From Candidatus Woesebacteria bacterium (GTDB lineage: Bacteria > Patescibacteriota > Microgenomatia > UBA1400 > UBA12028): a DNA stretch of 64,000 bases. This document shows, one piece after another, positions 1,054 to 64,000 of the stretch. The first letter of the stretch is position 1. Each line of letters begins with the position of its first letter. The DNA lies in the NCBI GenBank assembly GCA_018060955.1, contig JAGOVC010000001.1, forward strand, positions 5,558 to 69,557, read 5' to 3'. Made by a program: the position numbers and the translations under genes. A model generated the notes under the pieces. That model was given only the letters and a program-made list of their open reading frames with translations. It ran no database searches and was not told the DNA's origin.

Positions 1054-1056
1054 CGT

Positions 1057-2745: not shown

Positions 2746-2749
2746 CAGT

Positions 2750-4252: not shown

Positions 4253-4258
4253 AAATCT

Positions 4259-5182: not shown

Positions 5183-5183
5183 T

Positions 5184-7027: not shown

Positions 7028-7041
7028 CTTGGTGTTATCCT

Positions 7042-9544: not shown

Positions 9545-9593
9545 TTTTCCTCAAGTCAGTTCATTGCGTTTCTCAAAATAACCCATGAGGGTC

Positions 9594-10196: not shown

Positions 10197-10201
10197 AGTG
10201 G

Positions 10202-10206
10202 CCTCC
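10202..10206 (-). promoter_or_regulatory. Shine-Dalgarno GGAGG for sodA.
   Basis: The minus strand reads AGTTGGAGGCCACTATG. Confidence 0.55.
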
Positions 10207-10284
10207 AACTAGTTCAGGTGAACCAATAGTCACGTTTTTAGCTGGAAATGTCAAGTGCAGGGAACGCAAGAAAGGTGTAAATGT

Positions 10285-41246: not shown

Positions 41247-41309
41247 GTTCAAAGAGTATCATATTTTTTCGCGTAGCGAGCAGGAAAGAATGGTATATGC
41301 TACAAGCCT

Positions 41310-49167: not shown

Positions 49168-50166
49168 ATGAAGTCTATCGGCATCGTAGGAGTAGGATAT
49201 TGGGGGCCAAATTATGCTCGAATTCTTTCTGCGATGGACAACATACATTTCTCCTGGTGCGCTGACCTAAATGCGAATGCTCTTTCCAAAATGCAAAAAA
49301 ATTATCCTGATGTGAAGGTAACAACCTCAGTATCAGATCTTTTGAATGATGAAAGCCTAGATGCAGTGATCATCGTTACTCCGGCTCAGACTCATTTTGA
49401 ACTTGTCAAGCAATTTTTAATTGCTGGAAAAGATGTCTTAGTTGAAAAGCCCCTTACCACAACATCCAAAGATGGAGCAGAACTAGTAGCTTTAGCAAAG
49501 AAACATAAGCGGATTCTCATGGTGGATCATACGTTTGTCTTCAATCGCTCTGTGCAAGCTCTTAAAGCTGCAATCGATGCAGGGAGCCTAGGGAAACTAC
49601 TTTATGCGCATGGTCAATACAATGCGCTTGGCCCAATCCGTTACGATGTATCCGCAATGTGGGATTTGCCACACTTGATCTATGTGGCTCAATACTTGTT
49701 CGGTGCACAAGCAAAACGAGTGTCTGCGGTTGGGAAATCCTACTATCAGAAGGATAAAGAAGACGTTGTTTTCCTGACGATGGAATTTCCAAATAAAATT
49801 CTCTTTAATCTCTCGTGCTCCTGGATTGATCCAGTTAAAGTTCGAAAGCTGACATTAGTTGGTGATAAGAAAATGGCATCTTTCGACGACATGCTGTCGG
49901 AGAAACTTACTTTTTTTGACAAGGGTGTGCAAACGCAAACGGATCCAAATTTTGCAAAGTTACAGTTAGTCGTACGCAATGGCGATATCACCACTCCATA
50001 CATTCCTCCCAATGAGCCGTTAAAGGATGCAGTTCTCTGCTTTCTCTCTGCATTAGAATCCAGAAAACTTGAACAGTCTACTGCTTTGGATGGTGTCAAA
50101 TTAGTTAGAGTCCTAGAAGCTGCACAAGAATCGTTATCACATTCTGGGGCTAGTATCGAAATATAA
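49168..50166 (+). CDS. Gfo/Idh/MocA-family NAD(P)-dependent oxidoreductase (WbpB-like sugar 3-dehydrogenase candidate).
   Basis: IGIVGVGYWGPNYARIL and the EKP signature (VLVEKPLTTT). Confidence 0.8.
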   Translation: MKSIGIVGVGYWGPNYARILSAMDNIHFSWCADLNANALSKMQKNYPDVKVTTSVSDLLNDESLDAVIIVTPAQTHFELVKQFLIAGKDVLVEKPLTTTSKDGAELVALAKKHKRILMVDHTFVFNRSVQALKAAIDAGSLGKLLYAHGQYNALGPIRYDVSAMWDLPHLIYVAQYLFGAQAKRVSAVGKSYYQKDKEDVVFLTMEFPNKILFNLSCSWIDPVKVRKLTLVGDKKMASFDDMLSEKLTFFDKGVQTQTDPNFAKLQLVVRNGDITTPYIPPNEPLKDAVLCFLSALESRKLEQSTALDGVKLVRVLEAAQESLSHSGASIEI

Positions 50167-50170
50167 CCAT

Positions 50171-50839
50171 ATGGACTCAGTAATTTATCAAAACGTTGTG
50201 ATCGGAAAGGGAGCCGTTCTTGAAGAGGGAGTAGTGATCGGGCGGCCACCGCATGGCAAAAAAGATGGGGAACTACCAACCATCATTGGAGAAAATGCAG
50301 TCATTCGAGCCTACACCATTATTTGTGCAGGTGTAACAATTGGCAACAATTTCCAAACCGGACCGCATGTGTTTATTCGTGAACAAAACACAATTGGAGA
50401 CAATGTCTGTATTTGGGCGAATGCTGTAATCAACTATGACAACCATATAGGTAATGATGTTCGACTCCATGTTGGATCATTTATTGAGAAGACCAAAATT
50501 GGCAATCATGTCTTTTTCGGTCCACATGCCGTGTGTACGGATGATCCACACCCGGTAATGCCTCCTGATTATTCTCAATGTTGGAAGGGTGCAACGATTG
50601 GTGACGGAGCGATCATTGGCGCAAACAGCACAATCTTGCCACATGTCACTATTGGGAATGGCGCTGTTATTGGAGCTGGTAGCGTGGTTACTAAACCTAT
50701 CCCTGAATTTACTGTGGCAGTGGGTAACCCTGCAAAAGTGATGAAGTTTGTAGAAGAAATTGTCTGCTCACGTTGTGGAAAGAAACATAAACCATATGAA
50801 CACTACAGGAGTACCTATGCAAATGATTCCATTCGTTGA
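50171..50839 (+). CDS. Hexapeptide-repeat N-acetyltransferase (WbpD/PglD-like candidate).
   Basis: Tandem [LIV]G hexapeptides ([15 protein letters not shown]...[31 protein letters not shown]). There is a C-terminal [14 protein letters not shown] tail. Confidence 0.8.
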
Positions 50840-51929
50840 TTTAAAGGCACAGTACCAAACCATAAAGAAAGACATGGATCAGGCTATTCTTGATCTAGTA
50901 GGATCAACTCAATTTATACTTGGCAGTGATGTGGCAGCTTTCGAACAAGAATTCTCAGCTTATTGCTCAGTGAAGCATACCGTTGCCGTCTCATCTGGAA
51001 CTGAAGCGCTTATATTAGCGTTGCGGGCACTGGAAATTGGACCAGGTGACGAAGTGATTGTCCCTGCAAACACCTTCATTGCAACTGCTCTGGCTGTATC
51101 GTATGTAGGAGCAAAACCAGTTTTAGTAGATGCGGATGATCAAAACTACAACATGGATCCAGAACATGTAGTCCGTGCCATTACATCTCAGACAAAAGCA
51201 ATCATGCCAGTCCATTTATATGGTCAGCCAGCAGATATGACACCTCTGCTTAAAATTGCAAAAGAACACAAGCTGTACGTCATTGAGGATGCATGTCAAG
51301 CTCATGGGGCTGAGTACAAAGGTAAACGAGTTGGAGGAATCGGAGATATTGCTGCATTTAGCTTTTATCCCGGAAAGAACTTGGGAGCCTATGGGGACGG
51401 TGGTGCGGTCACGACCAACAACAAGAAACTGTTTGACCGGGTTACACTTTTGCACAATTATGGCCAGAAGGTAAAGTACCATCACGAAGTCAAAGGAACG
51501 AACAGCAGACTCGATACAATCCAGGCAGCAGTCTTACGTGTAAAGTTACCACATCTTGATGCTTGGAACTCCAAACGACAAGAAATTGCACAGCAGTATG
51601 CTCAAGGGTTGGCAAACCTTCCGATCACTCTTCCGGCCATCGATAAAAATCGCACCCATGTGTTTCATATTTATGCGATTATGACGACCAAACGCGACAA
51701 GCTGCAACAACACCTCCATGAAAAAGGGATTAGCGCTCAGATCCATTATCCAGTCCCAATTCATTTACAAAAGGCGTACGCAGAGCTACAGCACGGCAAA
51801 GGGGACTTTCCGGTGAGTGAATATCTGGCCAGCCATGAATTAAGTTTACCAATGTATGCAGAAATGACAGAAAAGCAGGTTCACACTGTGATTGAAGGGA
51901 TTCGTTCATTCTTTTCAGCAAATGCGTAA
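50817..51929 (+). CDS. DegT/DnrJ/EryC1/StrS-family PLP-dependent sugar aminotransferase (WbpE-like candidate).
   Basis: AGGAG 6 nt upstream of the ATG at 50817. [14 protein letters not shown], and [18 protein letters not shown] with the Schiff-base Lys intact. Confidence 0.8.
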
Positions 51930-52782: not shown

Positions 52783-54258
52783 TTATCGTGTGAGTCGATA
52801 AACAGCCACAACACCATGATTGGTCTGTACCTTTTCGAGCAGCTCCTTTTTAGTTGCTCCAAACTGTGTTGTTTCCCAATTTGTAGAAACTAACGGGTCT
52901 TTGGTACCCTCCTCTTGAATGTAGTAGAGGACTTGAGCTTTTTCATAGGACTGTTCAAATACTGGTTGGTATCCTGCCTTTTCTAGCAAAAAACGATATT
53001 CATATCCGATACCAGTTAGCCTGTCTGAACTATCTTTAAAAATCGTAAAGGAAGTTGGCTGAGTTGAATCAATATCTGCCCTGATTCGATCTACAACAAA
53101 CTGAATATTTTCCTGCGTTCGAAAGATTTCAGGAAAACGAAGATTCCTCCATTGCGATAACGTAAGGAGGAGGATCACCACTACAATTAGAAAACGCGGT
53201 CGAACTTGTGACGCAACGGCAGCAGTCCACAATAAAAACAGTGTCATCGGTATCAACAGGTAGTAATCATATAAATATCCACTATATAAAAGAAGCATGA
53301 TGATACTTCCAAGCGCTGAAAGCGACAGAGTAAAGATAGTTACGTTAGCAAAAAGTGAACTTCTCTTAATTCGCATTCCAATTCCGAGAAGGCCTAATAA
53401 AACGATCGAAAGCAATTTGTTTTGAAGAGTGAAACTTACGATACGATCAAGTTTTTCAATGAAGGATAAATGCGGATGATTGGCTGCAATACCTTTTCCT
53501 GCAGCTGAATCCAACAAATACTGGAGGAAGGCCTTGGATGTAATAAAGTGATGACTGATGTCAAACACAATCAACGGACTGATCATCACGATGATTCCTG
53601 TTGCAAACAGCACAGCCGCGATAATCTTGCGCTGAAAAGTACCTCGTGTCTGATATAGCAACAACAGCCCAACGGCAGGTAGAAGCAGTAGTGCACTGAA
53701 GTGAACATGAAAGAATAATCCAAAGACTAAACCAGCAATAAAAAACCATCGATACTGCTGTCGTTTGATTGCTTCCAAATACACTCCAAAAAAAAGAACA
53801 GTGACAAGCGGCATCATGGGTTGATTTGTCGCTGTTCGACTTGCAACTACAAGTGCAGGGTGAGTACTAGCAAGTAGAGCAAAAAGAATTCCTGCAAATG
53901 CAGAAAGGTGTCGGCGAAGCACAAGATATCCAACTACAACCGTGAAAACGCCCATCAAGATAAACGTGAGAACCATCATCGGCGGGTGCAACCCAAACAG
54001 TAGGTACACGACAGCGATACCGTAAAAGTAGAGGGGGGCTAAATAGAAGCCTCCAACACTAGCTTGAGGACCAAGCAGGGTTAGATCACCGCGCATGATT
54101 CGGAGTGCAAAGAGTGAGTCTCTGCCAAAATCGCTATCAAATGCAATCGAATTTGCAAAGTTCTGAGATCTAAAATATAGGGCAGCGATAGTAAACAGCA
54201 GTACAAGGAAAATATCTCTGCGTTGCACCTTCGAAAGTATGTCTCTAAATATTCTCAT
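52783..54258 (-). CDS. Polytopic membrane protein, GT-C-like; 'GDLxxxGPxxS' paralog family.
   Basis: FDSDFGRDSLFALRIMRGDLTLLGPQASVGGFYLAPLYFY is shared with the genes at 21855 and 26410. Confidence 0.75.
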   Translation of the reverse strand: MRIFRDILSKVQRRDIFLVLLFTIAALYFRSQNFANSIAFDSDFGRDSLFALRIMRGDLTLLGPQASVGGFYLAPLYFYGIAVVYLLFGLHPPMMVLTFILMGVFTVVVGYLVLRRHLSAFAGILFALLASTHPALVVASRTATNQPMMPLVTVLFFGVYLEAIKRQQYRWFFIAGLVFGLFFHVHFSALLLLPAVGLLLLYQTRGTFQRKIIAAVLFATGIIVMISPLIVFDISHHFITSKAFLQYLLDSAAGKGIAANHPHLSFIEKLDRIVSFTLQNKLLSIVLLGLLGIGMRIKRSSLFANVTIFTLSLSALGSIIMLLLYSGYLYDYYLLIPMTLFLLWTAAVASQVRPRFLIVVVILLLTLSQWRNLRFPEIFRTQENIQFVVDRIRADIDSTQPTSFTIFKDSSDRLTGIGYEYRFLLEKAGYQPVFEQSYEKAQVLYYIQEEGTKDPLVSTNWETTQFGATKKELLEKVQTNHGVVAVYRLTR

Positions 54259-55210
54259 ACAAATCTTTGTGATCTAGATACCATTCCACAAACTGATTCA
54301 GCCCTCTTTCAAGAGAAAAATTAGGCTGATATCCTAAACGACGTTGTGATTTTGTTAAATCCGCCCATGTTCGATCCACATCCCCGACGCGTTTTGGAGT
54401 GATGTTAAGAATAGCCTCTTTTCCTAAAAGTCTTGACAGAGTATTGATAAAAGTTTGAAGCGAGCTCGGCTGATTATTTCCTAAGTTGTATATTTCAAAT
54501 GAATCTTGAACATCGATTGCTGCGATGAGTCCAGCAATAACATCATCCACATAGGTGTAATCGCGTTGTGTATCCGTAGATCCAAAAACTGAAATCGGTT
54601 TGCCTTGATCGATTGCACGGGTAAAAAGAACGGGTGCCATATCCGGCCTTCCTGAAGGACCGTACACTGTAAAGAAACGAAACAACTGCAGTGGTAAACC
54701 ATAAACTCGATGATAGGTTTTACAGACGACTTCCATTGCACGTTTACTACCTGCGTAGGGTGACACTTGATTTTCAACTCGGTCAGATTCTTTAAAGGGA
54801 ACTTTAGTATTACTTCCATACACGGAGGAACTGGAAGCTATTAGAACTTTGCTCACATTAAATTTACTTGCTGCATGTAACACATGTTGGGTTCCGAGAA
54901 TATTTGTTTGGAGGTACTCTAATGGATGTTCGACACTGTTACGGACACCAGCTTTAGCCGCTAAATGAAAAATAATGTCAGGATGCAATTTCGAAACCGC
55001 TTGAAGCACTGCGGCCGTATCGCAGATATCTGCTCGTATGCACTCGTGCAATCCCTTGTGTTGTAACAAGGAAAGGTTATACTCCTTTAGCATTACAGGG
55101 TAATAGGGATCAAAGTTATCCAGAATTGAGACGGAGTGACCCAACTCAATCAACGCTGATGATAGATGAGAGCCGATAAAACCAGCTCCTCCTGTAACCA
55201 TGATACGCAT
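54245..55210 (-). CDS. NAD-dependent nucleotide-sugar epimerase (UDP-glucuronate 4-epimerase-like).
   Basis: MRIMVTGGAGFIGSHL, NFDPYYPVMLKEYNL, YAGSKRAMEV and the hallmark RFFTVYGPSGRPDMA. The start is at the internal Met (plus-strand CAT 55208-55210). The ORF-track N-terminal extension to 55303 would overlap the divergent gene. Confidence 0.8.
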   Translation of the reverse strand: MRIMVTGGAGFIGSHLSSALIELGHSVSILDNFDPYYPVMLKEYNLSLLQHKGLHECIRADICDTAAVLQAVSKLHPDIIFHLAAKAGVRNSVEHPLEYLQTNILGTQHVLHAASKFNVSKVLIASSSSVYGSNTKVPFKESDRVENQVSPYAGSKRAMEVVCKTYHRVYGLPLQLFRFFTVYGPSGRPDMAPVLFTRAIDQGKPISVFGSTDTQRDYTYVDDVIAGLIAAIDVQDSFEIYNLGNNQPSSLQTFINTLSRLLGKEAILNITPKRVGDVDRTWADLTKSQRRLGYQPNFSLERGLNQFVEWYLDHKDLYENI

Positions 55211-55256
55211 GATGTGAGTGATCATATCATTAATTAGATTGACGATGCACAGTGTT

Positions 55257-56216
55257 ATGAAGCAGAAGTCTATTACTGTCTCAGTGATCATTCCGGCATA
55301 CAACGAAGCTGGAAATCTCCCGGTTTTGATCCCGCTGGTTGTGAGTGAATTAAAGAAGTCATTACGAAAAAACGAAACCTACGAGCTATTAGTGATCGAT
55401 GATGGGAGTATTGATGAAACGCCCAAACAGTTGAAAACGTTGCAACAAAAGTATAAAGAATTGTATTCGATCAGATTTTCACGAAACTTTGGCCATCAGT
55501 CTGCATTAATGGCTGGACTTGAACTCGCAGTTGGAGAATGTGTGATAAGTATGGATGCAGATTTACAACATCCTCCTAAGTTGCTTAGTACTCTGCTATT
55601 GCACTGGCGAAAAGGGAAAAAAGTAGTCTATACGGTGCGGCGAGATCCGGATTCAGCATCGATCCTCAAACGGTTTTCCTCAAGGTTCTTTTATATAGTC
55701 TTTCGATTCTTATCAGGAGTGAGTTTAGATCCTGGTGTTGCAGATTTTAGGCTCCTTGATCGAAAAGTTGTAGATGTGGTAAAGACAATGAGTGAGTCAA
55801 CAATGTTTTTACGAGGAATCATTGCGTGGGCAGGATTTGATTCTGTTGCAGTGCCCTACATAGCTTCCAAAAGATTTAGAGGAACATCACAATATACCAT
55901 CATAAAGATGTTAAAACTTGCCGTAGGTGGAATCACATCCTTTAGTGTGCGTCCACTGTATATGATGGTAGTTTGTGGAATTTTGTTATCTGTAGTTTCA
56001 GGAATGTATGGAGTCTACGCAGTAATCATGTTTTTGCTGTATGGAAAGTTTGTTTTGCCCGGCTGGGCTTCAATCATTTCTAGTGTCTTATTTATTGGTG
56101 GCGTACAACTGATCTTGCTGGGAGTTGTGGGCATCTACATTGGTAATATCTATATCGAAACTAAGAGGCGTCCGCGATATATCATTGATAGCATCAATGC
56201 AAAGAAGGTAAAGTGA
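55257..56216 (+). CDS. Polyprenyl-phosphate glycosyltransferase (ArnC/GtrB/DPM1-like GT2 with C-terminal TM helices).
   Basis: VSVIIPAYNEAGNL, LLVIDDGSIDET, FSRNFGHQSALMAGL, MDADLQHPP, and two C-terminal TM helices. The start is at the ATG at 55257 (the ORF track shows a GTG at 55218). Confidence 0.8.
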   Translation: MKQKSITVSVIIPAYNEAGNLPVLIPLVVSELKKSLRKNETYELLVIDDGSIDETPKQLKTLQQKYKELYSIRFSRNFGHQSALMAGLELAVGECVISMDADLQHPPKLLSTLLLHWRKGKKVVYTVRRDPDSASILKRFSSRFFYIVFRFLSGVSLDPGVADFRLLDRKVVDVVKTMSESTMFLRGIIAWAGFDSVAVPYIASKRFRGTSQYTIIKMLKLAVGGITSFSVRPLYMMVVCGILLSVVSGMYGVYAVIMFLLYGKFVLPGWASIISSVLFIGGVQLILLGVVGIYIGNIYIETKRRPRYIIDSINAKKVK

Positions 56217-56220
56217 ATGT

Positions 56221-56562
56221 ATGTCTATTTTATTTGTGGGAATCTACGCTGTATTAAGTTCCATTGGCCTAGCGTTACTGCGACGTGAGTTTAGTGCTGT
56301 TGCCGGACAATCAATCTTAACTGTGCTTTTTCATCCATGGTTTTGGATGGGAGGATTTTTGTATGGGATAGGGTTTCTTATGTGGCTCTTTTTACTGTCC
56401 AAAAACGACCTCTCCTTTATCTTCCCCATCGCAGCAGGAAGTCTAGTAGTATCGACTATGCTCCTTGGGTCATTTTTTCTAAAAGAAACTATCCCACCAG
56501 TGCGTCTAGTTGCCGCTGGGTTTATCTTAATTGGAATCGTTTTGGCAAACCTGAAGAAATAA
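56221..56562 (+). CDS. Small four-TM DMT/SMR-like protein (EamA-type; ArnE/ArnF-like lipid-linked sugar flippase candidate).
   Basis: 113 aa with four hydrophobic helices, 4 nt downstream of the ArnC-like gene. Confidence 0.65.
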   Translation: MSILFVGIYAVLSSIGLALLRREFSAVAGQSILTVLFHPWFWMGGFLYGIGFLMWLFLLSKNDLSFIFPIAAGSLVVSTMLLGSFFLKETIPPVRLVAAGFILIGIVLANLKK

Positions 56563-56572
56563 TTACGACCAA

Positions 56573-58384
56573 CTATCGATAGAGTCGATAGTGCATATTC
56601 TCAAAAACTTTTGTTCTAGTTTCTGTAACTTCCATCGGCATTTCTTTGTTTTCAAGAATATAGCTAACCTTTGAATCTCTCCCACACGCTGTGTAACAAA
56701 CTTCAACCTGAGCATGAAGGACATTAGCAATGCGATGTTGCAACTCCTGAGTATTCGTTTGGATCCCAACAACCGATGTGTGTGAAGGGATGTGTTCAAC
56801 GACGTCTCGAAGCGCTGGATCACTCACGATCCAATCTTGCTGAACTCCTACAAATTGGGATGTGAGAAAAAAGTAAAAAGGAGACAGAAATCCTAGTACG
56901 AGCATCGCTCCTATAATGGCACGTGGCAAGGCTTTCCATTCTTTTGAAAAAGTGAACAGACAAAGCGGAACTATTAAAAACAATGGACGCAATAATTTTG
57001 TGAATGCGAGATCATCGGCATCTGCACCGGGAGTTCGCGCAAAGTAGATCCAGAGTGGGAACAGCAAGAGGATTGTGAATAACCAAGGATTGGATAGTTT
57101 CTTTTTGAAAAAAGCGAGTGTAATAGTACCGATTCCCAAGAAACCCAGGTATTTCCAAAATTCCAATTTATTAACAGATGCATAGGCAAAACGCGAAGCC
57201 GCTGATTCGCTAATCGAAAGATCTAAATAGACGACCCCCCAAGAATGGAGTGGTCGAAGGATAGGAAGGTTTTTCCCTACTGCCCCTGCCAGAATCAGCA
57301 AAGTAAAAAATAATCCAATCAGCATATAGAGAACAGTTCGTTGTCTGGATGATAGCAATCGGAACAGATAAAAAACTCCAGTTATAACTCCAAAAACAAG
57401 AAACGCTAGACAAAAAGCTCGGTTTATTAACCATAAACTTAGTGTACTAAATATCGCCAGCAGCAAAACGTTTCGAAAAGTTGACAGGCTTGTAGGCGTT
57501 TTTTTCAAGAGATTTCGTAATAAGTCCTTTTCGTTTACCAACGACAGTTGAACCAGTAGAGAAAGCACTACAAAGAAGGTAAGACCATGCCAGGTAAGAC
57601 CAGCGTATTCAAACAGAATTGGAGTATGTAACTGTGGAAATGAGAAACCGCGAAGGACATTGTCACTAAATGAATCGAATAACAAGAGACTGGGCCCCAG
57701 GATAAAACCTACTCCGATGAAAACACTACTAGAAAAGTCTGAGACTGAAAAATATTTGGCTAGCAACTTAGAAAGAACGAACGGTGCAGGAATAAACAAA
57801 CTTAACTTGATAATATCTAGCGATTTTTCAACACTCAAATTCGTTACTGCTTTAAGAGCAATGACTGGAAAGTATAGTCCGACATGATATCCGTCAATCT
57901 TGCTACCAATTCGATAGGGCTCCAATAACGGGTAGGTTGGGGCTTCAAAGAATAGTTTGATATTCGCGTGATGATAGTATTCGTCATGTAACCCGTTCTG
58001 GTACGTGAGGTTGTAGAGGAAGAAAGACCCCACCAGAGTGACAAAGAGTACCACCATCAAAAACAAGTTTGGTTTTTTGAGTGCAGATACGAGTCTCTTT
58101 CCAATCAGAAGATATCCTCCTATACTCAAGGTTATAAACACACAAGTGATTGCTTGAATAACAAATAGTGGTTTTGGAAGTATCCGTAGCAAAACTTCAA
58201 CGATTATTACGAATGCCGAAACAGAGAGGTAGGGGAAGGCAAAGCGAAAGAGTGAGTTACGGACCCAAGGGAGAAGTAACGATACTCCACCTAGGGCTAA
58301 GATTGTAAGGACTGCATAAAATCCGTCTACAACGAAATGGGGGAAGATAACTGAATAATGCGACAGCAGTGCATCCATAGCCAA
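56573..58384 (-). CDS. Large polytopic membrane protein, function unknown (GT-C-like candidate).
   Basis: 603 aa with at least 12 helices and a soluble C-terminal domain. Confidence 0.7.
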   Translation of the reverse strand: MAMDALLSHYSVIFPHFVVDGFYAVLTILALGGVSLLLPWVRNSLFRFAFPYLSVSAFVIIVEVLLRILPKPLFVIQAITCVFITLSIGGYLLIGKRLVSALKKPNLFLMVVLFVTLVGSFFLYNLTYQNGLHDEYYHHANIKLFFEAPTYPLLEPYRIGSKIDGYHVGLYFPVIALKAVTNLSVEKSLDIIKLSLFIPAPFVLSKLLAKYFSVSDFSSSVFIGVGFILGPSLLLFDSFSDNVLRGFSFPQLHTPILFEYAGLTWHGLTFFVVLSLLVQLSLVNEKDLLRNLLKKTPTSLSTFRNVLLLAIFSTLSLWLINRAFCLAFLVFGVITGVFYLFRLLSSRQRTVLYMLIGLFFTLLILAGAVGKNLPILRPLHSWGVVYLDLSISESAASRFAYASVNKLEFWKYLGFLGIGTITLAFFKKKLSNPWLFTILLLFPLWIYFARTPGADADDLAFTKLLRPLFLIVPLCLFTFSKEWKALPRAIIGAMLVLGFLSPFYFFLTSQFVGVQQDWIVSDPALRDVVEHIPSHTSVVGIQTNTQELQHRIANVLHAQVEVCYTACGRDSKVSYILENKEMPMEVTETRTKVFENMHYRLYR

Positions 58385-58406
58385 AGTCTACGACCTAAAG
58401 CCGATT

Positions 58407-60092
58407 ATGACAACTAAAGTACAACTACAATCAATCATCTTTCCGATACTGTTTACTTTTGGAGTCATCCTTTTTCTGTTTCGTTCACTTCTTTTTCAAT
58501 TTGACAGAGCTCTCTTGGATGGCATTGATTATCCATTGTATGCATGGATTCTTCAGACTGGAATTGCCAATGTAGGCAAGTTGTTTTCGCAAGGGCTATT
58601 TTTTGGGAATGCGTTTTATCCCTCCATGCAAGCACTACTCTTTTCTGACACTTTTTATCCCCTAAGTTTTCTATTGCTTCCTCTTTCGTTGCTCACGCAG
58701 TCTCCATTCATCATCCTCAATACAGGAGTCTTGGTTACATTATTTCTGAATGTAGTTAGTGCCGCTGTACTTACCCGCAATTTCACCTCCAAACGTGGAG
58801 CGCATACCCTATTAACACTCATCTTCTCTGTCTCACCCTATTTTTTCACGCAGATCCCTCATTTACAGATGTTGTCATTCTGGCCTAGCTATTTAATGAT
58901 CCATGTACTGTTCATCGCGAAACGTCCCAGATCATTTCTGGCGGTTGCAATGCTTCTATCGATGCAATGGTATCTATCGGTGTACTTAGGGACGATGGCA
59001 CTAGTAATAGCAAGTGTCTGGTGGCTTGTTTCCTTTTTCGGCAATAACACTAGACGAGACTTGGTTCGTAACGTACTCTTGTCCGGTTTCGTTTTTCTAT
59101 TGCTAACTGGACCATTACTCATTGCCTACCGCAATATTCGAAATGTATATCAAGCAACTCCAGATGCAGGAATGTTTGTTGATTATGCTGCGCAACCAAC
59201 AGATTATTTCTTTAGCAGAGGAGAGCCTACAGTACTTGCGCTGATGTCTCCGTTTAAGCTCTGGAACACACTCAATCATCGCGGAGCTGGAGAACCGGCA
59301 CGATGGATCGGTTTTGCTGTGCTCTTTCTTGGCACTTGTGGAATTATCATGTGGCGAAAGAGTGAAGATGTAATGACAAAAAAAGCAGGATGGTTTGCGA
59401 TCATCTTAGCTGTAGTGGGTCTGGTTTTCTCGTTTGGGACGCGTTTGACACTGAATGGAACCTATACGGGATTCCCATTACCATATCTGCTCGTACTAAA
59501 AAGTTTCCCAATCCTTAGCTTTTTCCGATCACCCTCACGTTGGTACTTCTTGTTTGTACTGGGATGGTGCGTATTTTCAGCGTTGGGTGTCCAGAGACTA
59601 TTGAAGACAGCAAAGAGTCGACAGTGGATTATTGCATTGGGAATTGTGTACGCAGCAGAAATGTTTCCTATGCAAATTCCTGTTACGACAATCTCGAAGC
59701 CAGATTATGTAGAGTGGCTATCAAACACCTGTAGACCAGGGGACGTAGTACTTAGTCTGCCCATCTTTTCACATTATGGTGCAGGTACAGTTGCCTTGAA
59801 TCCGTCCCCGACCTCTCAACTAATGATGTGGACGGTTAACAGTCAATGTCGGTTACTAAACGGCTATAGTGGAATACTGCCATCTTCCCTCAAGGAGCTT
59901 GATCAGCGAGCTAAACTAAAACTAGATTCCGACTTCGTGAGGATAGCAAGAGAGCGAGGGGTCACGCTTCTTTTGATGCATCAAGTTCCATTAGAGACGG
60001 TAGCTAGTTTCTCGACAGTTCCTGACGTACAATTAATAGATCAGGATCACACTTCCAGCCTATGGCGCCTACTCCCAAATCAAAAAAACTAG
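58407..60092 (+). CDS. Large polytopic membrane protein with a C-terminal extracytoplasmic domain, function unknown.
   Basis: 561 aa. The N-terminal half has many helices. The C-terminal roughly 150 aa are hydrophilic. Confidence 0.7.
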   Translation: MTTKVQLQSIIFPILFTFGVILFLFRSLLFQFDRALLDGIDYPLYAWILQTGIANVGKLFSQGLFFGNAFYPSMQALLFSDTFYPLSFLLLPLSLLTQSPFIILNTGVLVTLFLNVVSAAVLTRNFTSKRGAHTLLTLIFSVSPYFFTQIPHLQMLSFWPSYLMIHVLFIAKRPRSFLAVAMLLSMQWYLSVYLGTMALVIASVWWLVSFFGNNTRRDLVRNVLLSGFVFLLLTGPLLIAYRNIRNVYQATPDAGMFVDYAAQPTDYFFSRGEPTVLALMSPFKLWNTLNHRGAGEPARWIGFAVLFLGTCGIIMWRKSEDVMTKKAGWFAIILAVVGLVFSFGTRLTLNGTYTGFPLPYLLVLKSFPILSFFRSPSRWYFLFVLGWCVFSALGVQRLLKTAKSRQWIIALGIVYAAEMFPMQIPVTTISKPDYVEWLSNTCRPGDVVLSLPIFSHYGAGTVALNPSPTSQLMMWTVNSQCRLLNGYSGILPSSLKELDQRAKLKLDSDFVRIARERGVTLLLMHQVPLETVASFSTVPDVQLIDQDHTSSLWRLLPNQKN

Positions 60093-61090
60093 ATGCATCC
60101 ATTATTATTGTTAACTTTAATGGAAAATCTCTGCTAGGTGCCTGTTTAAAGTCACTTCAAACGCAATCGACTTCCCACACGTTTGAAATCATTGTTGTCG
60201 ATAATGCGTCAACCGACGGATCCGTAGACTATCTCTTTGCACAGTTTCCCGATGTGATCGTTGTTCAAGAGAATCAAAATTCTGGATTTGGTCGGGCGAA
60301 TAATTTGGGAGCATCCCGTGCAACTGGAGAGTATCTGATCTTCCTGAATGCTGACACAGAAGTAGAGCCGACATGGTTATTCGAAATGTTAACTGTCGCA
60401 CAGTCAAACCCGAAAATTGCTGCTGTATCACCCCGAGTGTATTTGTACGCAACAAAAGGAAATCAAAAGAAAGTTCAAAATGCGGGGATCCTGGTGTTTA
60501 AGCAGGGATTTGCAACCGATCGGGGTGTCTTTTATCGCAATGGTGTTTCAGACTATGAACTCGATAGTAAATTCTATGATCAACCAACTACACTTCCTGC
60601 CTGTTGTGGGGTGAGTTTGCTCGTTAAAACAGACGCTTTTACTAGCATTGGTGGTTTTGATCATGATTATTTTATGTATTACGAAGACGTGGATCTCTCG
60701 TTACGGTTACGTCAACGAGGATATCTATGCGAATATGCTCCTAAAGCGATAGTCTGGCATCATCACGGAGCATCCAGCCAGATTGCTTCTCCTTTTTTCA
60801 TCTTTCATACCGAGCGAAGTAGAATACTATTTGTCGCAAAACACTTTCCTTTAAGCACTCTACTAACAACAGTGTTTTTCTATCTCGGATTCATTTCCGT
60901 TGCTTTTGCTCGTGCAGTTTCAATGTTGCTGCAATCAGATTTTTCACAGATGAATCGATGGTTAGAAATAACTAGACTTCGTTGTAGCGTCCTGTTACAA
61001 GTAGTCGTGAAGATCCCTCAAATTATCGTGCGTACCCGTACCAAGCCCACATGGATAGCTGCAATGAACTTGTATGAAACATTCCTCTAA
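60062..61090 (+). CDS. Family 2 glycosyltransferase, rhamnosyltransferase-like; paralog set B.
   Basis: IIIVNFNGKS, IIVVDNASTDGS, IFLNADTEV and YFMYYEDVDLSLRL. Confidence 0.8.
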   Translation: MAPTPKSKKLDASIIIVNFNGKSLLGACLKSLQTQSTSHTFEIIVVDNASTDGSVDYLFAQFPDVIVVQENQNSGFGRANNLGASRATGEYLIFLNADTEVEPTWLFEMLTVAQSNPKIAAVSPRVYLYATKGNQKKVQNAGILVFKQGFATDRGVFYRNGVSDYELDSKFYDQPTTLPACCGVSLLVKTDAFTSIGGFDHDYFMYYEDVDLSLRLRQRGYLCEYAPKAIVWHHHGASSQIASPFFIFHTERSRILFVAKHFPLSTLLTTVFFYLGFISVAFARAVSMLLQSDFSQMNRWLEITRLRCSVLLQVVVKIPQIIVRTRTKPTWIAAMNLYETFL

Positions 61091-62603
61091 TATCCATACC
61101 ATTGCTGTGTATGATCGCTGGTTCTTTAGAATGGGCGGAGGCGAGCGCATGGTGTGTGAGTTACTTCGCAGTTTAAACTCGCAGGGATATGAAGTTACTC
61201 TAATCTCACAAATAGAGATTGATATTGAAAAGGCGTCAAGGGAATTTGGAATTGAGCTTCAATTTGTAAAAACGCTCCTAGTCTCAGATATCAATGAAGA
61301 ACAATTGGGATCGATTTCGAAAGGATATGATCTTTTTATCAACGCCTCTCATCTGGATATCGTTCCTAATCAAGCACAACGAGGTGTAATACTTCCGTTT
61401 TTCCCAGCAAAGCAGGCAAACTCGATGAAGGATAAAATTAAGCTGGGTGTAGTTATTCCATTACTGCGAGCCTTGCTTGTTTATCCAAAGAGAATGATTG
61501 GATTCACGGGTGATTTCCTACTTTCATCACGATCCATCATCACATTTTCACAGCAGAAACTTTCCCAAGTTGGATTGGTGCTTTCCGTTCCACAGTTTTC
61601 GGCTTCTTTTATAGAATCTGTCCAGTTTTTTTGTGGGGATACACAACTATTCCCTACAACCAGAGCAAACGTTGTTCAAAAGAAAATCAGTTATCAGTTT
61701 GAAGACCTTGATCTATTACGAGACAACGGAATTCGTATTCAAATCCCAAACGGAGTTTTACATGAGAACGTACGATTGGAGTCAATAGAGATTCCATCAC
61801 TTCGCTTTAGTCTCTGGAAAATATTTTCAGGACTTTTCCCTGAAGCCTCCGTTCGACTAACTGGTGGAGCAAGTTTGAATTTTTTGGATCGTGTCTCTAC
61901 CTATCAGCAAATCTGGGCAATCTCCTTGTATACGCAACAATGGATTCAAACGTACTGGGGAAAAGAATCAGAGATACTTTTCCCACCGGTTAACGTTCAT
62001 TCCTTTTCTTCTGCAGCTCACAAGTCAAACAGAATTATTCATATCGGACGATTCTTTTCCGGGGGACACAGTAAAAAACAACTCGAACTAGTGACTGCAT
62101 TTCGACAGATGGTTGATGAAGGTTTAGCGGATTGGGAACTTCATTTGGTAGGCAAACCTGCAGGAGAATCGATCCATCAAAAATACTTCCAACACATTCA
62201 AACATTGGCGCAAGGTTATCCTATTATTTTCCACTCCGATGCTGATACAAAAACACTTCAAAAACTTCTTTCAGAATCAAAGATTTATTGGCATGCGACG
62301 GGATATCAAGAGGATCTGACTACACACCCAGAAGCGGCCGAGCATTTCGGAATATCTACCGTAGAAGCAATGGCTTCGGGATGTGTGCCAGTTGTCTATG
62401 CAGCGGGAGGTCAGAAAGAAATTGTAGGCAACAACGAGGGACACACATGGACAACAATCGAGGAGCTTAAGAGCATCACAAAAAACCTCATTGAAGATCC
62501 AAAGCAACTTGCTACACTATCCTCACAAGCGATGGTCAAGGCTAGGGACTACGACACGGCGCAATTTGAAGTAAGATTAAATGATCTAGTGAATAAATTA
62601 TGA
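61074..62603 (+). CDS. GT4-family glycosyltransferase with a long N-terminal extension.
   Basis: EHFGISTVEAMASGCVPVVYAAGGQKEIV. It is a paralog of the gene at 7042. Confidence 0.8.
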   Translation: MKHSSNIHTIAVYDRWFFRMGGGERMVCELLRSLNSQGYEVTLISQIEIDIEKASREFGIELQFVKTLLVSDINEEQLGSISKGYDLFINASHLDIVPNQAQRGVILPFFPAKQANSMKDKIKLGVVIPLLRALLVYPKRMIGFTGDFLLSSRSIITFSQQKLSQVGLVLSVPQFSASFIESVQFFCGDTQLFPTTRANVVQKKISYQFEDLDLLRDNGIRIQIPNGVLHENVRLESIEIPSLRFSLWKIFSGLFPEASVRLTGGASLNFLDRVSTYQQIWAISLYTQQWIQTYWGKESEILFPPVNVHSFSSAAHKSNRIIHIGRFFSGGHSKKQLELVTAFRQMVDEGLADWELHLVGKPAGESIHQKYFQHIQTLAQGYPIIFHSDADTKTLQKLLSESKIYWHATGYQEDLTTHPEAAEHFGISTVEAMASGCVPVVYAAGGQKEIVGNNEGHTWTTIEELKSITKNLIEDPKQLATLSSQAMVKARDYDTAQFEVRLNDLVNKL

Positions 62604-64000
62604 AAAATCCAGTGCGTAATTTCTTTCTTCGTCACTGGTTATTCTGGATTACACTCCTAGGATTCACATTGCTCCTAGCAAGGAACCCATTCTCCGAGCG
62701 CACTCTGATCGCGAACTTCGAACCGTATCCTGACTCTTTTCACTATATTTTGCCTGCACGAAATCTGCTGATGGGGAAGGGGTTTTCCATGGATCGTCTG
62801 GGAAAAATTGTTCCTGGTGTTCCACCTTTTTACTCCCTCGTATTCGTTCCATTCTTTGCGATACTCAATGATCCGAGAATGGTATACGTAGCCAACGTGC
62901 TCCTTTCATTGTTGTCCTTGGTTATCTTCTATGCGCTAGTCCGAAAATTCTTTTCGGCAGGAATACTCCAACTATTCTTGTGTCTGCTGTTTGTTACCCA
63001 TCCAATTTTGGTTTGGTATCCAACCTTAGCGATGGCTGAAAATTTACAGTTACTACTTACTTTGCTTGGACTGTATATGCTCTGTACGCGACCTACCAGT
63101 AAAAAGTATTTTCTAGGTGGGGCGCTAACAATTTCATATTACGCAACCAAATTCGCCAGTATTCCAGTCAGTGCAGTATATGGGCTGGTATTTTTTGCAA
63201 AGAGCATCGTGCACTCTATTCAAGAAAAGAGTTGGAAACCTGTTGTCCTATTTATTGCAGGCGCCCTTGTGTGTCTGACCCTCTATCTGTCTATGGAGTA
63301 TTCAATTCGACAGACGACAGAGTTGCATATGATCGCTAATGTATTATTTCCTAAACCTGCACAGATCTCCGGAACTGCCGGTGATGCTCCCGCGGTTCCT
63401 GATCAAACATTCTTTTCAGTTGTGTATGTCAAAGACCATGCCCCGCAGTACTTGCGTTGGCTTACTGGTGAATCTCTTCCACTCTTGTGGAAGCAGGAGG
63501 TATTACTTCCACGGTATCTAGCTGTCTTAAGTCTGGTGGGAATTGGAATCGGATTTTTTGATAAAAAATATCGACTCTTTTCCCTCACCGCCGTGGGAAT
63601 GTATGTTGCAACCATTGGCTTCATGAGTATGTTTTATGTTGTTGATGCTCGGTATTTCTACCACGCGATCCCTGTTGCGTTGCTCGGGGTAGGTATTGCA
63701 GGAACAAAACTCTATGAACTCGCCAAATCACGCTCGCTGTGGGTGGGAATTGGGATAGCGGGTCTGCTGCTGTTCTATTTGATGACAAACTTTTCCCGGT
63801 TAAAATTTCAACTATCCTTAAATCTAAAGTATGCGGAAAGTCCTTGGTACTATGTTTCCGTTCGCAAAGTTGATGCGTATTTGTCAACCCAACAATTTGA
63901 AAAAGAGCCAGTGGTAATCTCACCGGTACCTCCATTTTTATTTGATTTTTATGCAAAGTCTCCAATGATCATGCTTCCATTACACAAAGAACAGGAGTTT
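62600..64000 (+). CDS. Polytopic membrane protein, 3' truncated by the window edge; GT-C-like candidate.
   Basis: The ATG at 62600 forms an ATGA overlap with the upstream TGA. The frame stays open for 467 codons to the window end. Hydrophobic helices alternate with short loops. Confidence 0.7.
   Translation, partial: MKNPVRNFFLRHWLFWITLLGFTLLLARNPFSERTLIANFEPYPDSFHYILPARNLLMGKGFSMDRLGKIVPGVPPFYSLVFVPFFAILNDPRMVYVANVLLSLLSLVIFYALVRKFFSAGILQLFLCLLFVTHPILVWYPTLAMAENLQLLLTLLGLYMLCTRPTSKKYFLGGALTISYYATKFASIPVSAVYGLVFFAKSIVHSIQEKSWKPVVLFIAGALVCLTLYLSMEYSIRQTTELHMIANVLFPKPAQISGTAGDAPAVPDQTFFSVVYVKDHAPQYLRWLTGESLPLLWKQEVLLPRYLAVLSLVGIGIGFFDKKYRLFSLTAVGMYVATIGFMSMFYVVDARYFYHAIPVALLGVGIAGTKLYELAKSRSLWVGIGIAGLLLFYLMTNFSRLKFQLSLNLKYAESPWYYVSVRKVDAYLSTQQFEKEPVVISPVPPFLFDFYAKSPMIMLPLHKEQEF

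What the first reader, a model, noticed from the sequence alone, without database searches (positions are those of the whole stretch)
54245..58384. Lipid-linked donor module 2: an arn-like arrangement of SDR epimerase, ArnC-like GT2, ArnE/F-like small DMT protein and a GT-C-like membrane protein.
An ArnC-type polyprenyl-phosphate glycosyltransferase (55257-56216, with two C-terminal TM helices) is followed 4 nt later by a 113-aa four-TM DMT/SMR-like protein (56221-56562) resembling ArnE/ArnF flippase subunits. A divergent UDP-GlcA-4-epimerase-like SDR (54245-55210) lies upstream and a convergent 603-aa polytopic membrane protein (56573-58384) downstream. The arrangement mirrors the donor-synthesis, flipping and GT-C-transfer logic of the arn operon, but with a uronic-acid epimerase instead of ArnA/ArnB. 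It may build a polyprenyl-P-(galact)uronate-type donor.
Basis: inference. Interest (0 to 1): 0.65.

Follow-up and report, generated by a model that had tools for sequence, protein, structure and literature searches.

The report
Three-component glycosylation module in Woesebacteria
This stretch of a Candidatus Woesebacteria (CPR) genome encodes an ordinary kind of machinery that loads a sugar, probably a uronic acid, onto a membrane lipid carrier, flips it and attaches it to a surface molecule; its only unusual part is a neighbouring large membrane enzyme from a small, so far undescribed family.

Summary

The PMT_2 gene lies just outside the given coordinates and overlaps the SDR gene by 14 nt. 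In distant relatives the 601-aa gene travels instead with a DUF6311-like protein, a 550-aa membrane protein and often ABC-transporter genes.

So this is a Gtr/Arn/Rgt/Pgf-type three-component system. A polyprenyl-P-galacturonate donor is plausible but unproven, and no UDP-glucose dehydrogenase lies in the window. Such a donor is already known from Rhizobium (RgtE).

The parts
52783..54258 (-). 491-aa GT-C glycosyltransferase of the PMT_2/ArnT-like kind. It is the probable extracytoplasmic transferase of the module.
   Evidence: Pfam PMT_2 E 1.6e-12, 48.3 bits, above the 26.1 cutoff. An F-D-S-D-F-G-R-D motif follows TM1. hhalign lines this motif up with the PDETRY region of E. coli ArnT, but weakly. 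It overlaps the SDR gene by 14 nt. It is kept next to the SDR in L001, L002, L008 and L013, at 60% identity in L013.
54245..55210 (-). 321-aa extended SDR, a probable UDP-glucuronate/UDP-galacturonate 4-epimerase.
   Evidence: Pfam Epimerase 1.1e-57. Best solved relatives are 5u4q (1.6e-70) and B. cereus UGAepi 6zl6 (7.8e-55). The alignment keeps S-S-S at positions 126-128, Y149/K153 and the FTVYGPxGRPDMA stretch with T178 and R185. It scores below the GalE and RmlB equivalog cutoffs.
55257..56216 (+). 319-aa GtrB/ArnC-type polyprenyl-phosphate glycosyltransferase: a GT-A domain followed by two C-terminal TM helices.
   Evidence: Pfam Glycos_transf_2 1.2e-28. Solved relatives: GtrB 5ekp 2.6e-70 over residues 5-312, ArnC 9hwj 2.1e-39, DPMS 4.4e-15. 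NCBIfam PgfS 4.1e-74 and ArnC 2.9e-45, both below cutoff. It is the only full-length protein of this type in the window.
56221..56562 (+). 113-aa four-helix DMT/EamA-like protein. It is the proposed flippase for the polyprenyl-P-sugar, and is encoded by a single gene, so presumably a homodimer.
   Evidence: It starts 4 nt after the GT2 stop. Sub-threshold TMEM234 and EamA matches appear in three independent members of its family. NCBIfam ArnE E 0.0015. hhalign against E. coli ArnE gives probability 68.5% and E 4.6e-5 over 73 columns. Relatives lie next to a GT2 in L013 and L011. It occupies the position that GtrA holds in L006.
56573..58378 (-). 601-aa GT-C-fold membrane protein of an undescribed family. 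It is a neighbour of the module but probably belongs to a separate conserved gene set.
58407..60092 (+). 561-aa polytopic membrane protein, transcribed divergently from the 601-aa gene. It is labelled DUF6311 in precomputed tables and is the conserved partner of the 601-aa family.
   Evidence: It is divergently paired with the 601-aa family in the window, L001, L002, L007, L013 and L014, and a homologue is present in L003. My own hmmscan finds no Pfam family even at E <= 1.
60062..64000 (+). The rest of the operon of the DUF6311-like gene: a GT2 (60062-61090), a GT4 (61074-62603) and a roughly 550-aa membrane protein that starts at 62600 and runs off the window.
   Evidence: Pfam matches. The same gene order appears in L001, L002, L008, L013 and L014. 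BLAST identities are 44-45% to the L013 and L014 homologues.

Best explanation
The region holds a four-gene three-component glycosylation module built from two divergent gene pairs. It belongs to the same kind as Gtr, Arn, Rgt and Pgf.

1. The SDR interconverts UDP-glucuronate and UDP-galacturonate in the cytoplasm. This step is inferred from the closest solved enzymes and conserved carboxylate-binding residues.
2. The GtrB-type GT2 transfers one sugar from the UDP-sugar to undecaprenyl phosphate at the inner face of the membrane. The family assignment is strong. The identity of the sugar is inferred only from the neighbouring epimerase.
3. The 113-aa DMT-like protein, probably a homodimer, moves the lipid-linked sugar to the outer leaflet. 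This is inferred from weak homology to ArnE and from its position in the operon.
4. A GT-C enzyme transfers the sugar to an acceptor outside the cell. The most likely enzyme is the 491-aa PMT_2 protein, whose gene overlaps the SDR gene. The acceptor is unknown. It may be a glycan made by the surrounding 60-kb locus or a surface protein.

The 601-aa convergent gene also encodes a GT-C-fold enzyme, from an undescribed family. It belongs to a different conserved set, with a DUF6311-like protein, a GT2, a GT4 and a 550-aa membrane protein, and with an ABC transporter in relatives. It may or may not use the same lipid-linked donor.
For: Genes and spacing.

SDR: read against PMC7984243 (carboxylate bound by Thr126, Ser127, Ser128 and Thr178; decarboxylases carry Glu at position 128) and PMC12338863 (Arg185 holds the UDP-GalA carboxylate).

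GT2. A 34%-identical GT2 in L006 heads a canonical GT2-GtrA-YfhO operon.

Small protein. It lies next to a GT2 in L013 and L011. Kelly et al. 2024 describe a four-helix EmrE/ArnE-like putative flippase in a three-component system (PMC11127046).

PMT_2 protein. The unit [small <- GT2 | SDR -> PMT_2] is kept in L013 at 51-63% identity, while the 601-aa homologue there is separated from it by two ABC-transporter genes.

601-aa protein: GT-C fold. Invariant D132-E133 follows a helix that is preceded by the most positively charged loop, KRLVSALKKPN. hhalign against the PMT_2 paralogues gives 89% probability. It occurs without the module in L003, L007 and L014.
Against: - No UDP-glucose 6-dehydrogenase is encoded in the 64-kb window, so the supply of UDP-GlcA is unshown.
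- The sugar specificity of GtrB-type enzymes cannot be read from sequence. The best-scoring characterised relatives use Glc (GtrB) or a HexNAc (PgfS).
- Homology of the small protein to ArnE and EamA is below every curated cutoff. Flippase activity has never been shown directly even for the model proteins (PMC11127046).
- Three GT-C-type genes flank the GT2, and more than ten lie in the window. Assigning the PMT_2 protein as the partner rests on gene overlap and on one distant syntenic genome.
- Promoter and terminator scans gave fewer or no more sites than chance and say nothing about operon structure.
Confidence: 0.6

Rival explanations
1. The machinery is the same but the sugar is different. 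The GT2 loads a neutral hexose or a HexNAc onto undecaprenyl phosphate, as GtrB, CsbB, GacI and PgfS do. The uronate epimerase instead feeds the cytoplasmic GT2 and GT4 enzymes of the surrounding locus.
For: The best characterised relatives of the GT2 are GtrB (Glc) and PgfS (HexNAc). No UDP-glucose dehydrogenase lies in the window. Many cytoplasmic glycosyltransferases nearby could use UDP-GalA.
Against: The SDR is divergently paired with the GT2 only 46 nt away, and it overlaps a GT-C gene. The whole four-gene unit moves together in L013. Pgf and Rgt both show that a 4-epimerase encoded with such a GT2 supplies its donor (PMC12041528, PMC7663294).
Confidence: 0.3
2. The 113-aa protein is not a flippase. 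It is a GacJ/Rv3632-like accessory subunit that binds the GT2 and stimulates it. Flipping is done by something else or happens spontaneously.
For: It starts 4 nt after the GT2 stop and is the same size as GacJ, 113 aa (bioRxiv 10.1101/180810). Its relatives always lie next to a GT2. Flippase activity is unproven for all small proteins of this kind (PMC11127046).
Against: It has no DUF2304 match. It has four predicted helices, not three. It gives reproducible weak matches to transporter families (EamA, TMEM234) and to ArnE. It occupies the GtrA position of L006. The two roles do not exclude each other.
Confidence: 0.2
3. The 601-aa convergent membrane protein is the GT-C transferase that consumes the donor made by this GT2.
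For: It has a GT-C fold with an invariant D-E motif. It is the immediate neighbour of the small-protein gene in the window, L001 and L002. One donor can serve several GT-C enzymes, as with RgtA-D and RgtF (PMC7663294).
Against: It is on the opposite strand. In L013 it is separated from the unit by ABC-transporter genes. In L014, L007 and L003 it has no GtrB-type GT2, small protein or SDR nearby. Its constant partners are the DUF6311-like and 550-aa proteins. It is only about 34% identical between the window and L013, against 51-63% for the module proteins.
Confidence: 0.25
4. The 601-aa protein is an en-bloc transferase, like an oligosaccharyltransferase or a ligase. It would move a finished undecaprenyl-PP-linked glycan, exported by the ABC transporter seen next to it in relatives, onto a protein or a wall polymer.
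Against: No WWDxG motif is conserved. Only W516 is nearly invariant. ALG12, AftA, ArnT and DPY19, which use polyprenyl-P-monosaccharide donors, score equally well. No ABC transporter lies in this window.
Confidence: 0.15

Closest known systems
Gtr / CsbB-GtcA-YfhO three-component glycosylation systems (GtrB, GtrA and a GT-C enzyme)
   Same: The GT2 aligns over its full length with solved GtrB (5ekp, E 2.6e-70). The gene order is GT2, then a small four-helix protein, with a GT-C gene nearby. A 34%-identical GT2 in L006 heads a canonical GT2-GtrA-YfhO operon.
   Different: The small protein is not a GtrA-family member: it has no PF04138 match, whereas L006 scores 5e-19. The GT-C enzymes are of the PMT_2 type and of an undescribed family, not Gtr-specific or YfhO. 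A uronate-type epimerase is attached to the unit.
Arn pathway (ArnC, ArnE/ArnF, ArnT) for lipid A aminoarabinose
   Same: Both have a polyprenyl-P glycosyltransferase (ArnC 2e-39), a small DMT-like four-helix protein weakly similar to ArnE and an ArnT-like PMT_2 GT-C enzyme.
   Different: The ArnC and ArnE equivalog cutoffs are missed by a wide margin (154.6 against 529 bits, and 18.7 against 92 bits). There is one small gene rather than an ArnE/ArnF pair, and no similarity to ArnF. ArnA, ArnB and ArnD are absent. No LPS-related gene was seen in the window, and CPR bacteria are not known to make LPS (from memory), so lipid A is unlikely as the acceptor.
Rhizobium Rgt system (RgtE bactoprenyl-P-GalA synthase with GT-C GalA transferases RgtA-D and RgtF)
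   Same: The proposed chemistry is the same: UDP-GalA, then polyprenyl-P-GalA, then extracytoplasmic transfer by GT-C enzymes (PMC7663294).
   Different: The acceptor in Rhizobium is the LPS core or lipid A. No RgtE sequence was available, so identity to RgtE was not tested. The GalA donor here is inference only.
Streptococcus mutans Pgf protein O-glycosylation system (PgfS, PgfE, PgfM1, PgfM2)
   Same: The composition matches: a GtrB-like GT-A enzyme, a 4-epimerase and two GT-C enzymes encoded together (PMC12041528). PgfS is the best NCBIfam match of the GT2 (4.1e-74).
   Different: The score is below the PgfS cutoff (249.6 against 500 bits). PgfM1 and PgfM2 are YfhO-type. Pgf transfers GalNAc (PMC12041528), whereas the SDR here carries UDP-GlcA-epimerase residues. 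Pgf has no small DMT-like protein.
Citrobacter youngae O1/O2 pentofuranose three-component system (ORF15, ORF14, and ORF12 of family GT136)
   Same: It uses a four-helix EmrE/ArnE-like small protein as the putative flippase, together with a GT-C enzyme that founded a new family (PMC11127046).
   Different: The lipid donor there is made from PRPP by a phosphoribosyltransferase, not by a GT2 from a UDP-sugar.
GacI/GacJ/GacL of Streptococcus pyogenes
   Same: A GtrB-like GT2 is followed directly by a 113-aa membrane protein, with a GT-C transferase (bioRxiv 10.1101/180810).
   Different: GacJ is a three-helix DUF2304 protein that stimulates GacI. The protein here has four helices, is EamA-like and has no DUF2304 match.

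Membership tests
GtrB/ArnC-type polyprenyl-phosphate glycosyltransferases (GT2) | N-terminal GT-A domain with a DxD motif | tested here: met
   Pfam Glycos_transf_2 E 1.2e-28. The motif MDADLQHPP is present in the translation.
GtrB/ArnC-type polyprenyl-phosphate glycosyltransferases (GT2) | Two C-terminal transmembrane helices and full-length similarity to a solved member | tested here: met
   Residues 5-312 align with GtrB 5ekp residues 25-328 (E 2.6e-70), and residues 8-313 align with ArnC. Two hydrophobic stretches follow residue 230.
ArnC (NCBIfam NF007986 equivalog) | Score at or above the curated cutoff | tested here: not met
   154.6 bits against a cutoff of 529.
PgfS (NCBIfam NF047588 equivalog) | Score at or above the curated cutoff | tested here: not met
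   249.6 bits against a cutoff of 500.
GtrB/ArnC-type polyprenyl-phosphate glycosyltransferases (GT2) | Transfer of a sugar from a nucleotide sugar to polyprenyl phosphate | not testable with these tools
   This needs a membrane assay or lipid LC-MS.
UDP-glucuronate 4-epimerase (extended SDR) | Rossmann GxxGxxG motif and the Ser/Thr-Tyr-Lys catalytic triad | tested here: met
   GGAGFIGSH at the N-terminus. S, Y and K align with T126, Y149 and K153 of BcUGAepi.
UDP-glucuronate 4-epimerase (extended SDR) | Carboxylate-binding residues (T/S126, S127, S128, T178, R185) and no Glu at position 128 | tested here: met
   ASSSSVYG and FTVYGPSGRPDMA align with ISTSSVYG and FTVYGPRQRPDMA of 6zl6. The residue roles come from PMC7984243 and PMC12338863.
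UDP-glucuronate 4-epimerase (extended SDR) | A source of UDP-GlcA (UDP-glucose 6-dehydrogenase) in the same locus | tested here: not met
   No UDPG_MGDP_dh domain was found in any ORF of 150 aa or more in the window. The rest of the genome could not be searched.
GalE (TIGR01179) and RmlB (TIGR01181) equivalogs | Score at or above the curated cutoff | tested here: not met
   GalE 178.6 against 262.3 bits. RmlB 179.8 against 365.1 bits.
ArnE/ArnF flippase subunits | Score at or above the ArnE equivalog cutoff | tested here: not met
   18.7 bits against 92, E 0.0015.
ArnE/ArnF flippase subunits | Two paralogous small subunits encoded side by side | tested here: not met
   Only one small gene is present. 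No similarity to E. coli ArnF was found.
ArnE/ArnF flippase subunits | Detectable homology to E. coli ArnE | tested here: inconclusive
   BLASTP gives 23% identity over 56 residues, pairwise E 0.006. hhalign gives probability 68.5% and E 4.6e-5 over 73 columns.
DMT superfamily (EamA, TMEM234) | Pfam match at or above the gathering score | tested here: inconclusive
   The window protein scores EamA 20.5 against 28.2 bits and TMEM234 21.9 against 30.1 bits. The same two families recur below threshold in L011 and L013. One close relative carries a precomputed EamA hit.
SMR / EmrE efflux pumps | Multi_Drug_Res match and a membrane-embedded Glu in TM1 | tested here: not met
   No PF00893 match at E <= 0.01. 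TM1 (SILFVGIYAVLSSIGLALL) has no Glu. E23 follows R21-R22 at the end of the helix.
GtrA family (PF04138) | Pfam match | tested here: not met
   No match for the window protein. The positive control, the L006 small protein, scores 5.1e-19.
GacJ / DUF2304 | Pfam match and three TM helices | tested here: not met
   No DUF2304 match at E <= 0.01. Four hydrophobic segments are read in the sequence.
GT-C glycosyltransferase superfamily (601-aa protein) | GT-C fold | tested here: met
GT-C glycosyltransferase superfamily (601-aa protein) | Conserved acidic residues in the first extracytoplasmic loop | tested here: met
   D132, E133, D188 and D235 are invariant in 47 sequences. The outside location is inferred from the positive-inside rule: the loop KRLVSALKKPN precedes helix 105-125. 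It was not measured.
GT-C glycosyltransferase superfamily (601-aa protein) | Membership of a described GT-C sequence family | tested here: not met
   None of the 47 members matches a GT-C Pfam family, and only one has any Pfam match at all (TgpA_N, E 0.00028). The window protein has no NCBIfam match and no PDB sequence match. The only link is hhalign at 89% probability to the PMT_2 paralogues.
Oligosaccharyltransferases (STT3/PglB/AglB) | WWDxG motif in the C-terminal domain | tested here: not met
   Only W516 is nearly invariant. The local sequence is VQQDWIV.
PMT_2 / ArnT-like GT-C (491-aa protein) | Pfam PMT_2 match at or above the gathering score | tested here: met
   48.3 bits against 26.1, E 1.6e-12.

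The most novel reading that the evidence does not exclude
Woesebacteria and related CPR bacteria are not known to make LPS (from memory). They may use an undecaprenyl-P-galacturonate donor, so far known only from LPS modification in Rhizobium and its relatives, to add acidic sugars to a surface glycan or protein. The 601-aa protein may found a new GT-C family, with about three extra N-terminal helices and an H-D-E-x-x-H motif, that works with DUF6311-like and 550-aa membrane proteins on ABC-exported glycans.
Probability: 0.25. Interest if true: 0.55.

Novelty: new member of a known kind. Interest (0 to 1): 0.3.

Why it matters
CPR bacteria cannot yet be cultured alone, and their envelopes are almost uncharacterised. 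This module and the 60-kb glycan locus around it, which holds more than ten GT-C-like genes, show that they invest heavily in glycosylation outside the cytoplasmic membrane. That glycosylation probably includes acidic sugars.

The practical gains are three. There is a testable prediction of a polyprenyl-P-hexuronate lipid. There is a corrected module boundary that names the likely transferase. And there is a confidently modelled GT-C family with no Pfam or NCBIfam model that could be added to family databases.

The logic of the system itself is already well known.

Tried and rejected
- The first AlphaFold2 run used only six sequences and gave pLDDT 46. It was discarded and not used for fold search.
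- A second word-index homologue search with the six-sequence profile found nothing new. The exhaustive representative search was needed.
- An exact look-up of the 603-aa ORF failed because the TTG start chosen by the ORF tool is wrong.
- Sequence searches of the PDB with the 491-aa, 561-aa and 603-aa proteins found nothing.
- A literature search for entry 5U4Q did not reveal what the enzyme is. I recall it as a Klebsiella NAD-dependent epimerase, possibly Uge/Gla, but this is unverified, so the argument rests on 6zl6.
- The genome-contig scan with the single GT2 sequence returned only two Lachnospiraceae loci. They were useful only as a canonical comparison.
- The metagenome scan with the small protein returned two near-identical loci.
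- The afdb50 fold library was unavailable.
- Promoter and terminator scans gave fewer or no more sites than shuffled sequence.
- hhalign of the 601-aa family against a single E. coli ArnT sequence gave nothing. For the PMT_2 group against ArnT it was weak (probability 12%).
- Rejected readings: the SDR as a UDP-GlcA decarboxylase (no Glu at position 128), as GalE or RmlB (below cutoffs), and the small protein as an EmrE-type pump, GtrA or GacJ.

Full report
**Source and observation**

The window comes from a Candidatus Woesebacteria (CPR) bacterium. The 601-aa protein is 100% identical to NCBI KBD71_00290, and the GT2 lies on contig JAHZTO010000492.1.

- The SDR is at 54245-55210 (-).
- The GT2 is at 55257-56216 (+).
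- The 113-aa gene is at 56221-56562 (+) and starts 4 nt after the GT2 stop.
- A convergent large membrane protein is at 56573-58384 (-). Its true start is probably the ATG at 58378, giving 601 aa.

The SDR and GT2 start codons are divergent and 46 nt apart. No tRNA or Rfam element lies in the window. Composition is even, at GC 0.40-0.44.

**The SDR**

It is an extended SDR (Pfam Epimerase 1.1e-57). It is below the curated cutoffs for GalE and RmlB.

Its best solved relatives are 5u4q (1.6e-70) and the Bacillus cereus UDP-glucuronate 4-epimerase 6zl6 (7.8e-55). MoeE5, UXS, WbgU and GalE score lower.

The alignment with 6zl6 shows three things.
- The catalytic Ser/Thr-Tyr-Lys triad is present.
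- S-S-S aligns with T126-S127-S128.
- The stretch FTVYGPSGRPDMA contains the equivalents of T178 and R185.

According to PMC7984243, residues 126, 127, 128 and 178 bind the carboxylate of UDP-GlcA, and decarboxylases carry Glu at position 128. According to PMC12338863, Arg185 holds the carboxylate of UDP-GalA.

The weak point is supply. No UDP-glucose 6-dehydrogenase is encoded anywhere in the 64-kb window.

**The GT2**

It has a GT-A domain with MDADLQHPP and two C-terminal helices. It aligns over its full length with solved GtrB (5ekp, 2.6e-70), and less well with ArnC (2.1e-39) and DPMS (4.4e-15). In NCBIfam, PgfS is the best match (4.1e-74) and ArnC is second (2.9e-45), both far below their cutoffs.

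It is a polyprenyl-phosphate glycosyltransferase, closer to GtrB and PgfS than to ArnC. It is the only full-length protein of this type in the window. A short AglJ/PpgS-like GT2 lies at 23738-24394.

A 34%-identical GT2 in a Lachnospiraceae genome (L006) heads a textbook operon of GT2, GtrA (PF04138, 5e-19) and YfhO (8e-148).

**The 113-aa protein**

- It has four hydrophobic segments and no Glu inside TM1. E23 follows R21-R22 at the end of the helix.
- It has no SMR, GtrA or DUF2304 match.
- It gives sub-threshold matches to TMEM234 and EamA (E about 2e-4 and 6e-4). A 51%-identical relative in L013 and a 37%-identical one in L011 give the same two matches.
- NCBIfam ArnE scores 18.7 bits against a cutoff of 92.
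- Against E. coli ArnE, fetched, BLASTP gives 23% identity over 56 residues. hhalign gives 68.5% probability and E 4.6e-5 over TM2-TM4.
- There is no similarity to ArnF.

Only close relatives are found by the word-index search. In L011 the relative lies between a 700-aa polytopic protein with a GDEFLH motif plus a methyltransferase on one side and a 236-aa GT2 on the other.

So it is a divergent DMT-type half-transporter. It is always next to a GT2 and occupies the slot that GtrA holds in L006. A flippase role is the best guess. A GacJ-like stimulating role (bioRxiv 10.1101/180810) cannot be excluded.

Its K+R count is 3 on one side of the membrane against 4 on the other. This is compatible with a dual-topology homodimer, but that is speculation.

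**The 601-aa protein**

It has no Pfam, NCBIfam or PDB sequence match. The word-index search finds six proteins. The exhaustive profile search finds 50 representatives among 1.84 billion. None of the 47 aligned members matches a GT-C Pfam family, and only one has any Pfam match at all, a weak one to TgpA_N.

With the 47-sequence alignment, AlphaFold2 gives pLDDT 93.3 and pTM 0.93. With six sequences it gave only 46.

- Foldseek agrees.
- hhalign links the family to the window's PMT_2 paralogues at 89% probability.

Invariant residues are D132, E133, H136, Y164, H165, G167, D188, K191, G228, D235 and G381. The motif NGLHDEYYHHA follows helix 105-125, which is preceded by the most basic loop, so it should face outward like the catalytic loop of GT-C enzymes. 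This location is inferred. About three helices precede this GT-C core.

No WWDxG motif is conserved.

**Which genes belong together**

The 491-aa gene at 52783-54258 (-) is a PMT_2/ArnT-like GT-C enzyme (48.3 bits against a 26.1 cutoff). It overlaps the SDR gene by 14 nt.

| Locus | Relation to the window | What is there |
|---|---|---|
| L013 (GCA_964492495.1) | More distant genome | The unit [small <- GT2 \| SDR -> PMT_2] is kept at 51%, 56%, 63% and 60% identity. The 601-aa homologue (about 34% identical) is separated from it by ABC2_membrane and ABC_tran genes. |
| L014, L007, L003 | Distant members of the 601-aa family | The 601-aa family occurs with no GtrB-type GT2, small protein or UGAepi-like SDR nearby. 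|

The constant companions of the 601-aa family are as follows.
- A divergent DUF6311-like protein is present in every one of these loci.
- A GT2, a GT4 and a 550-aa membrane protein follow it in the window, L013 and L014. A 550-aa homologue is also present in L003.
- ABC-transporter genes lie next to it in L007, L013 and L014.

The module is therefore SDR + PMT_2 + GT2 + small protein. The 601-aa gene belongs to a neighbouring set, although several GT-C enzymes could share one lipid donor.

**Mechanism proposed**

1. UDP-GlcA is epimerised to UDP-GalA. This is inferred.
2. The GT2 loads the sugar onto undecaprenyl phosphate. The family assignment is strong, but the sugar is inferred.
3. The small DMT-like dimer flips the lipid-linked sugar. 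This is inferred by analogy.
4. The PMT_2 GT-C enzyme transfers the sugar outside the membrane to an unknown acceptor. This is inferred from synteny.

**Comparison with known systems**

The logic is that of the Gtr, Arn, Rgt, Pgf, Gac and C. youngae three-component systems (PMC11127046, PMC12041528, PMC7663294, bioRxiv 10.1101/180810). A bactoprenyl-P-GalA donor with GT-C GalA transferases is already known from Rhizobium (PMC7663294). ArnE/EmrE-like small putative flippases outside the arn operon are also known (PMC11127046).

This is a new member of a known kind. The moderately new elements are the CPR host, the pairing of a uronate epimerase with a GtrB-type enzyme in a lineage not known to make LPS (from memory), and the undescribed GT-C family.

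**Verdict**

Interest is 0.3.

Noticed in passing
window 10329-64000: The window is one very large glycan locus with an unusual number of big polytopic membrane proteins. Five match PMT_2: 12715-14409, 15765-17489, 26410-27660, 34827-36743 and 52783-54258. At least nine more have no Pfam match: 1057-2745, 10329-11867 (a paralogue of 12715-14409), 18586-20646, 21855-23642, 27666-29327, 30277-31620, 41310-42845, 58407-60092 and 62600 to the end. Only one or two polyprenyl-P glycosyltransferases are present to feed them.
   Followed up: partly
window 58407-60092; L013 6270-8000: Precomputed tables label this 561-aa protein and its relatives PF19830 (DUF6311). My own hmmscan against the current Pfam copy reports nothing for it, even at E <= 1. 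The label probably comes from another Pfam release.
   Followed up: partly
window 56573-64000; L003, L007, L013, L014: Three large membrane proteins (the 601-aa GT-C family, the DUF6311-like protein and a 550-aa protein) co-occur in the window, L003, L013 and L014. L007 shows at least the first two. In the window, L013 and L014 a GT2 and a GT4 go with them, and in L007, L013 and L014 Wzm/Wzt-like ABC-transporter genes lie next to them. This looks like a conserved CPR glycan-assembly set of unknown role.
   Followed up: partly
window 49168-51929: This operon encodes a Gfo/Idh/MocA oxidoreductase (best NCBIfam match UDP-GlcNAc 3-dehydrogenase), an LbH acetyltransferase and a DegT aminotransferase. 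That is a WbpB/WbpD/WbpE-like route to a 3-acetamido sugar, but with no 6-dehydrogenase, so the product is probably UDP-GlcNAc3NAc rather than its uronic acid.
   Followed up: partly
window 39381-41252 (-): An asparagine-synthase-type glutamine amidotransferase sits inside the glycan locus. Its best NCBIfam match is the XrtA/PEP-CTERM EPS amidotransferase, and it passes the asn_synth_AEB cutoff. From memory, such enzymes in O-antigen loci amidate uronic acids (WbpS). That would fit a glycan containing uronic acid.
   Followed up: no
window 23738-24394 (+): A short 218-aa GT2 without TM helices has AglJ, PpgS and dolichyl-phosphate hexose transferase as its best matches.
   Followed up: no
window 2750-4252 (+) and 46389-47771 (-): There are two Wzx/MurJ-type (Polysacc_synt) flippase genes in one locus and no ABC transporter, whereas relatives (L007, L013, L014) carry ABC2_membrane and ABC_tran genes beside the 601-aa family gene.
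   Followed up: no
L011 3048-7072: A 37%-identical relative of the small protein lies in an unrelated genome between a 700-aa polytopic protein (motif GDEFLH, no Pfam match) plus a methyltransferase on one side and a 236-aa TM-less GT2 on the other. This suggests that the small-protein family is a general partner of polyprenyl-P glycosyltransferases.
   Followed up: partly
window 9077-10208: GreA and Fe/Mn superoxide dismutase genes lie between the first glycosyltransferase block (73-9059) and the rest of the glycan locus.
   Followed up: no
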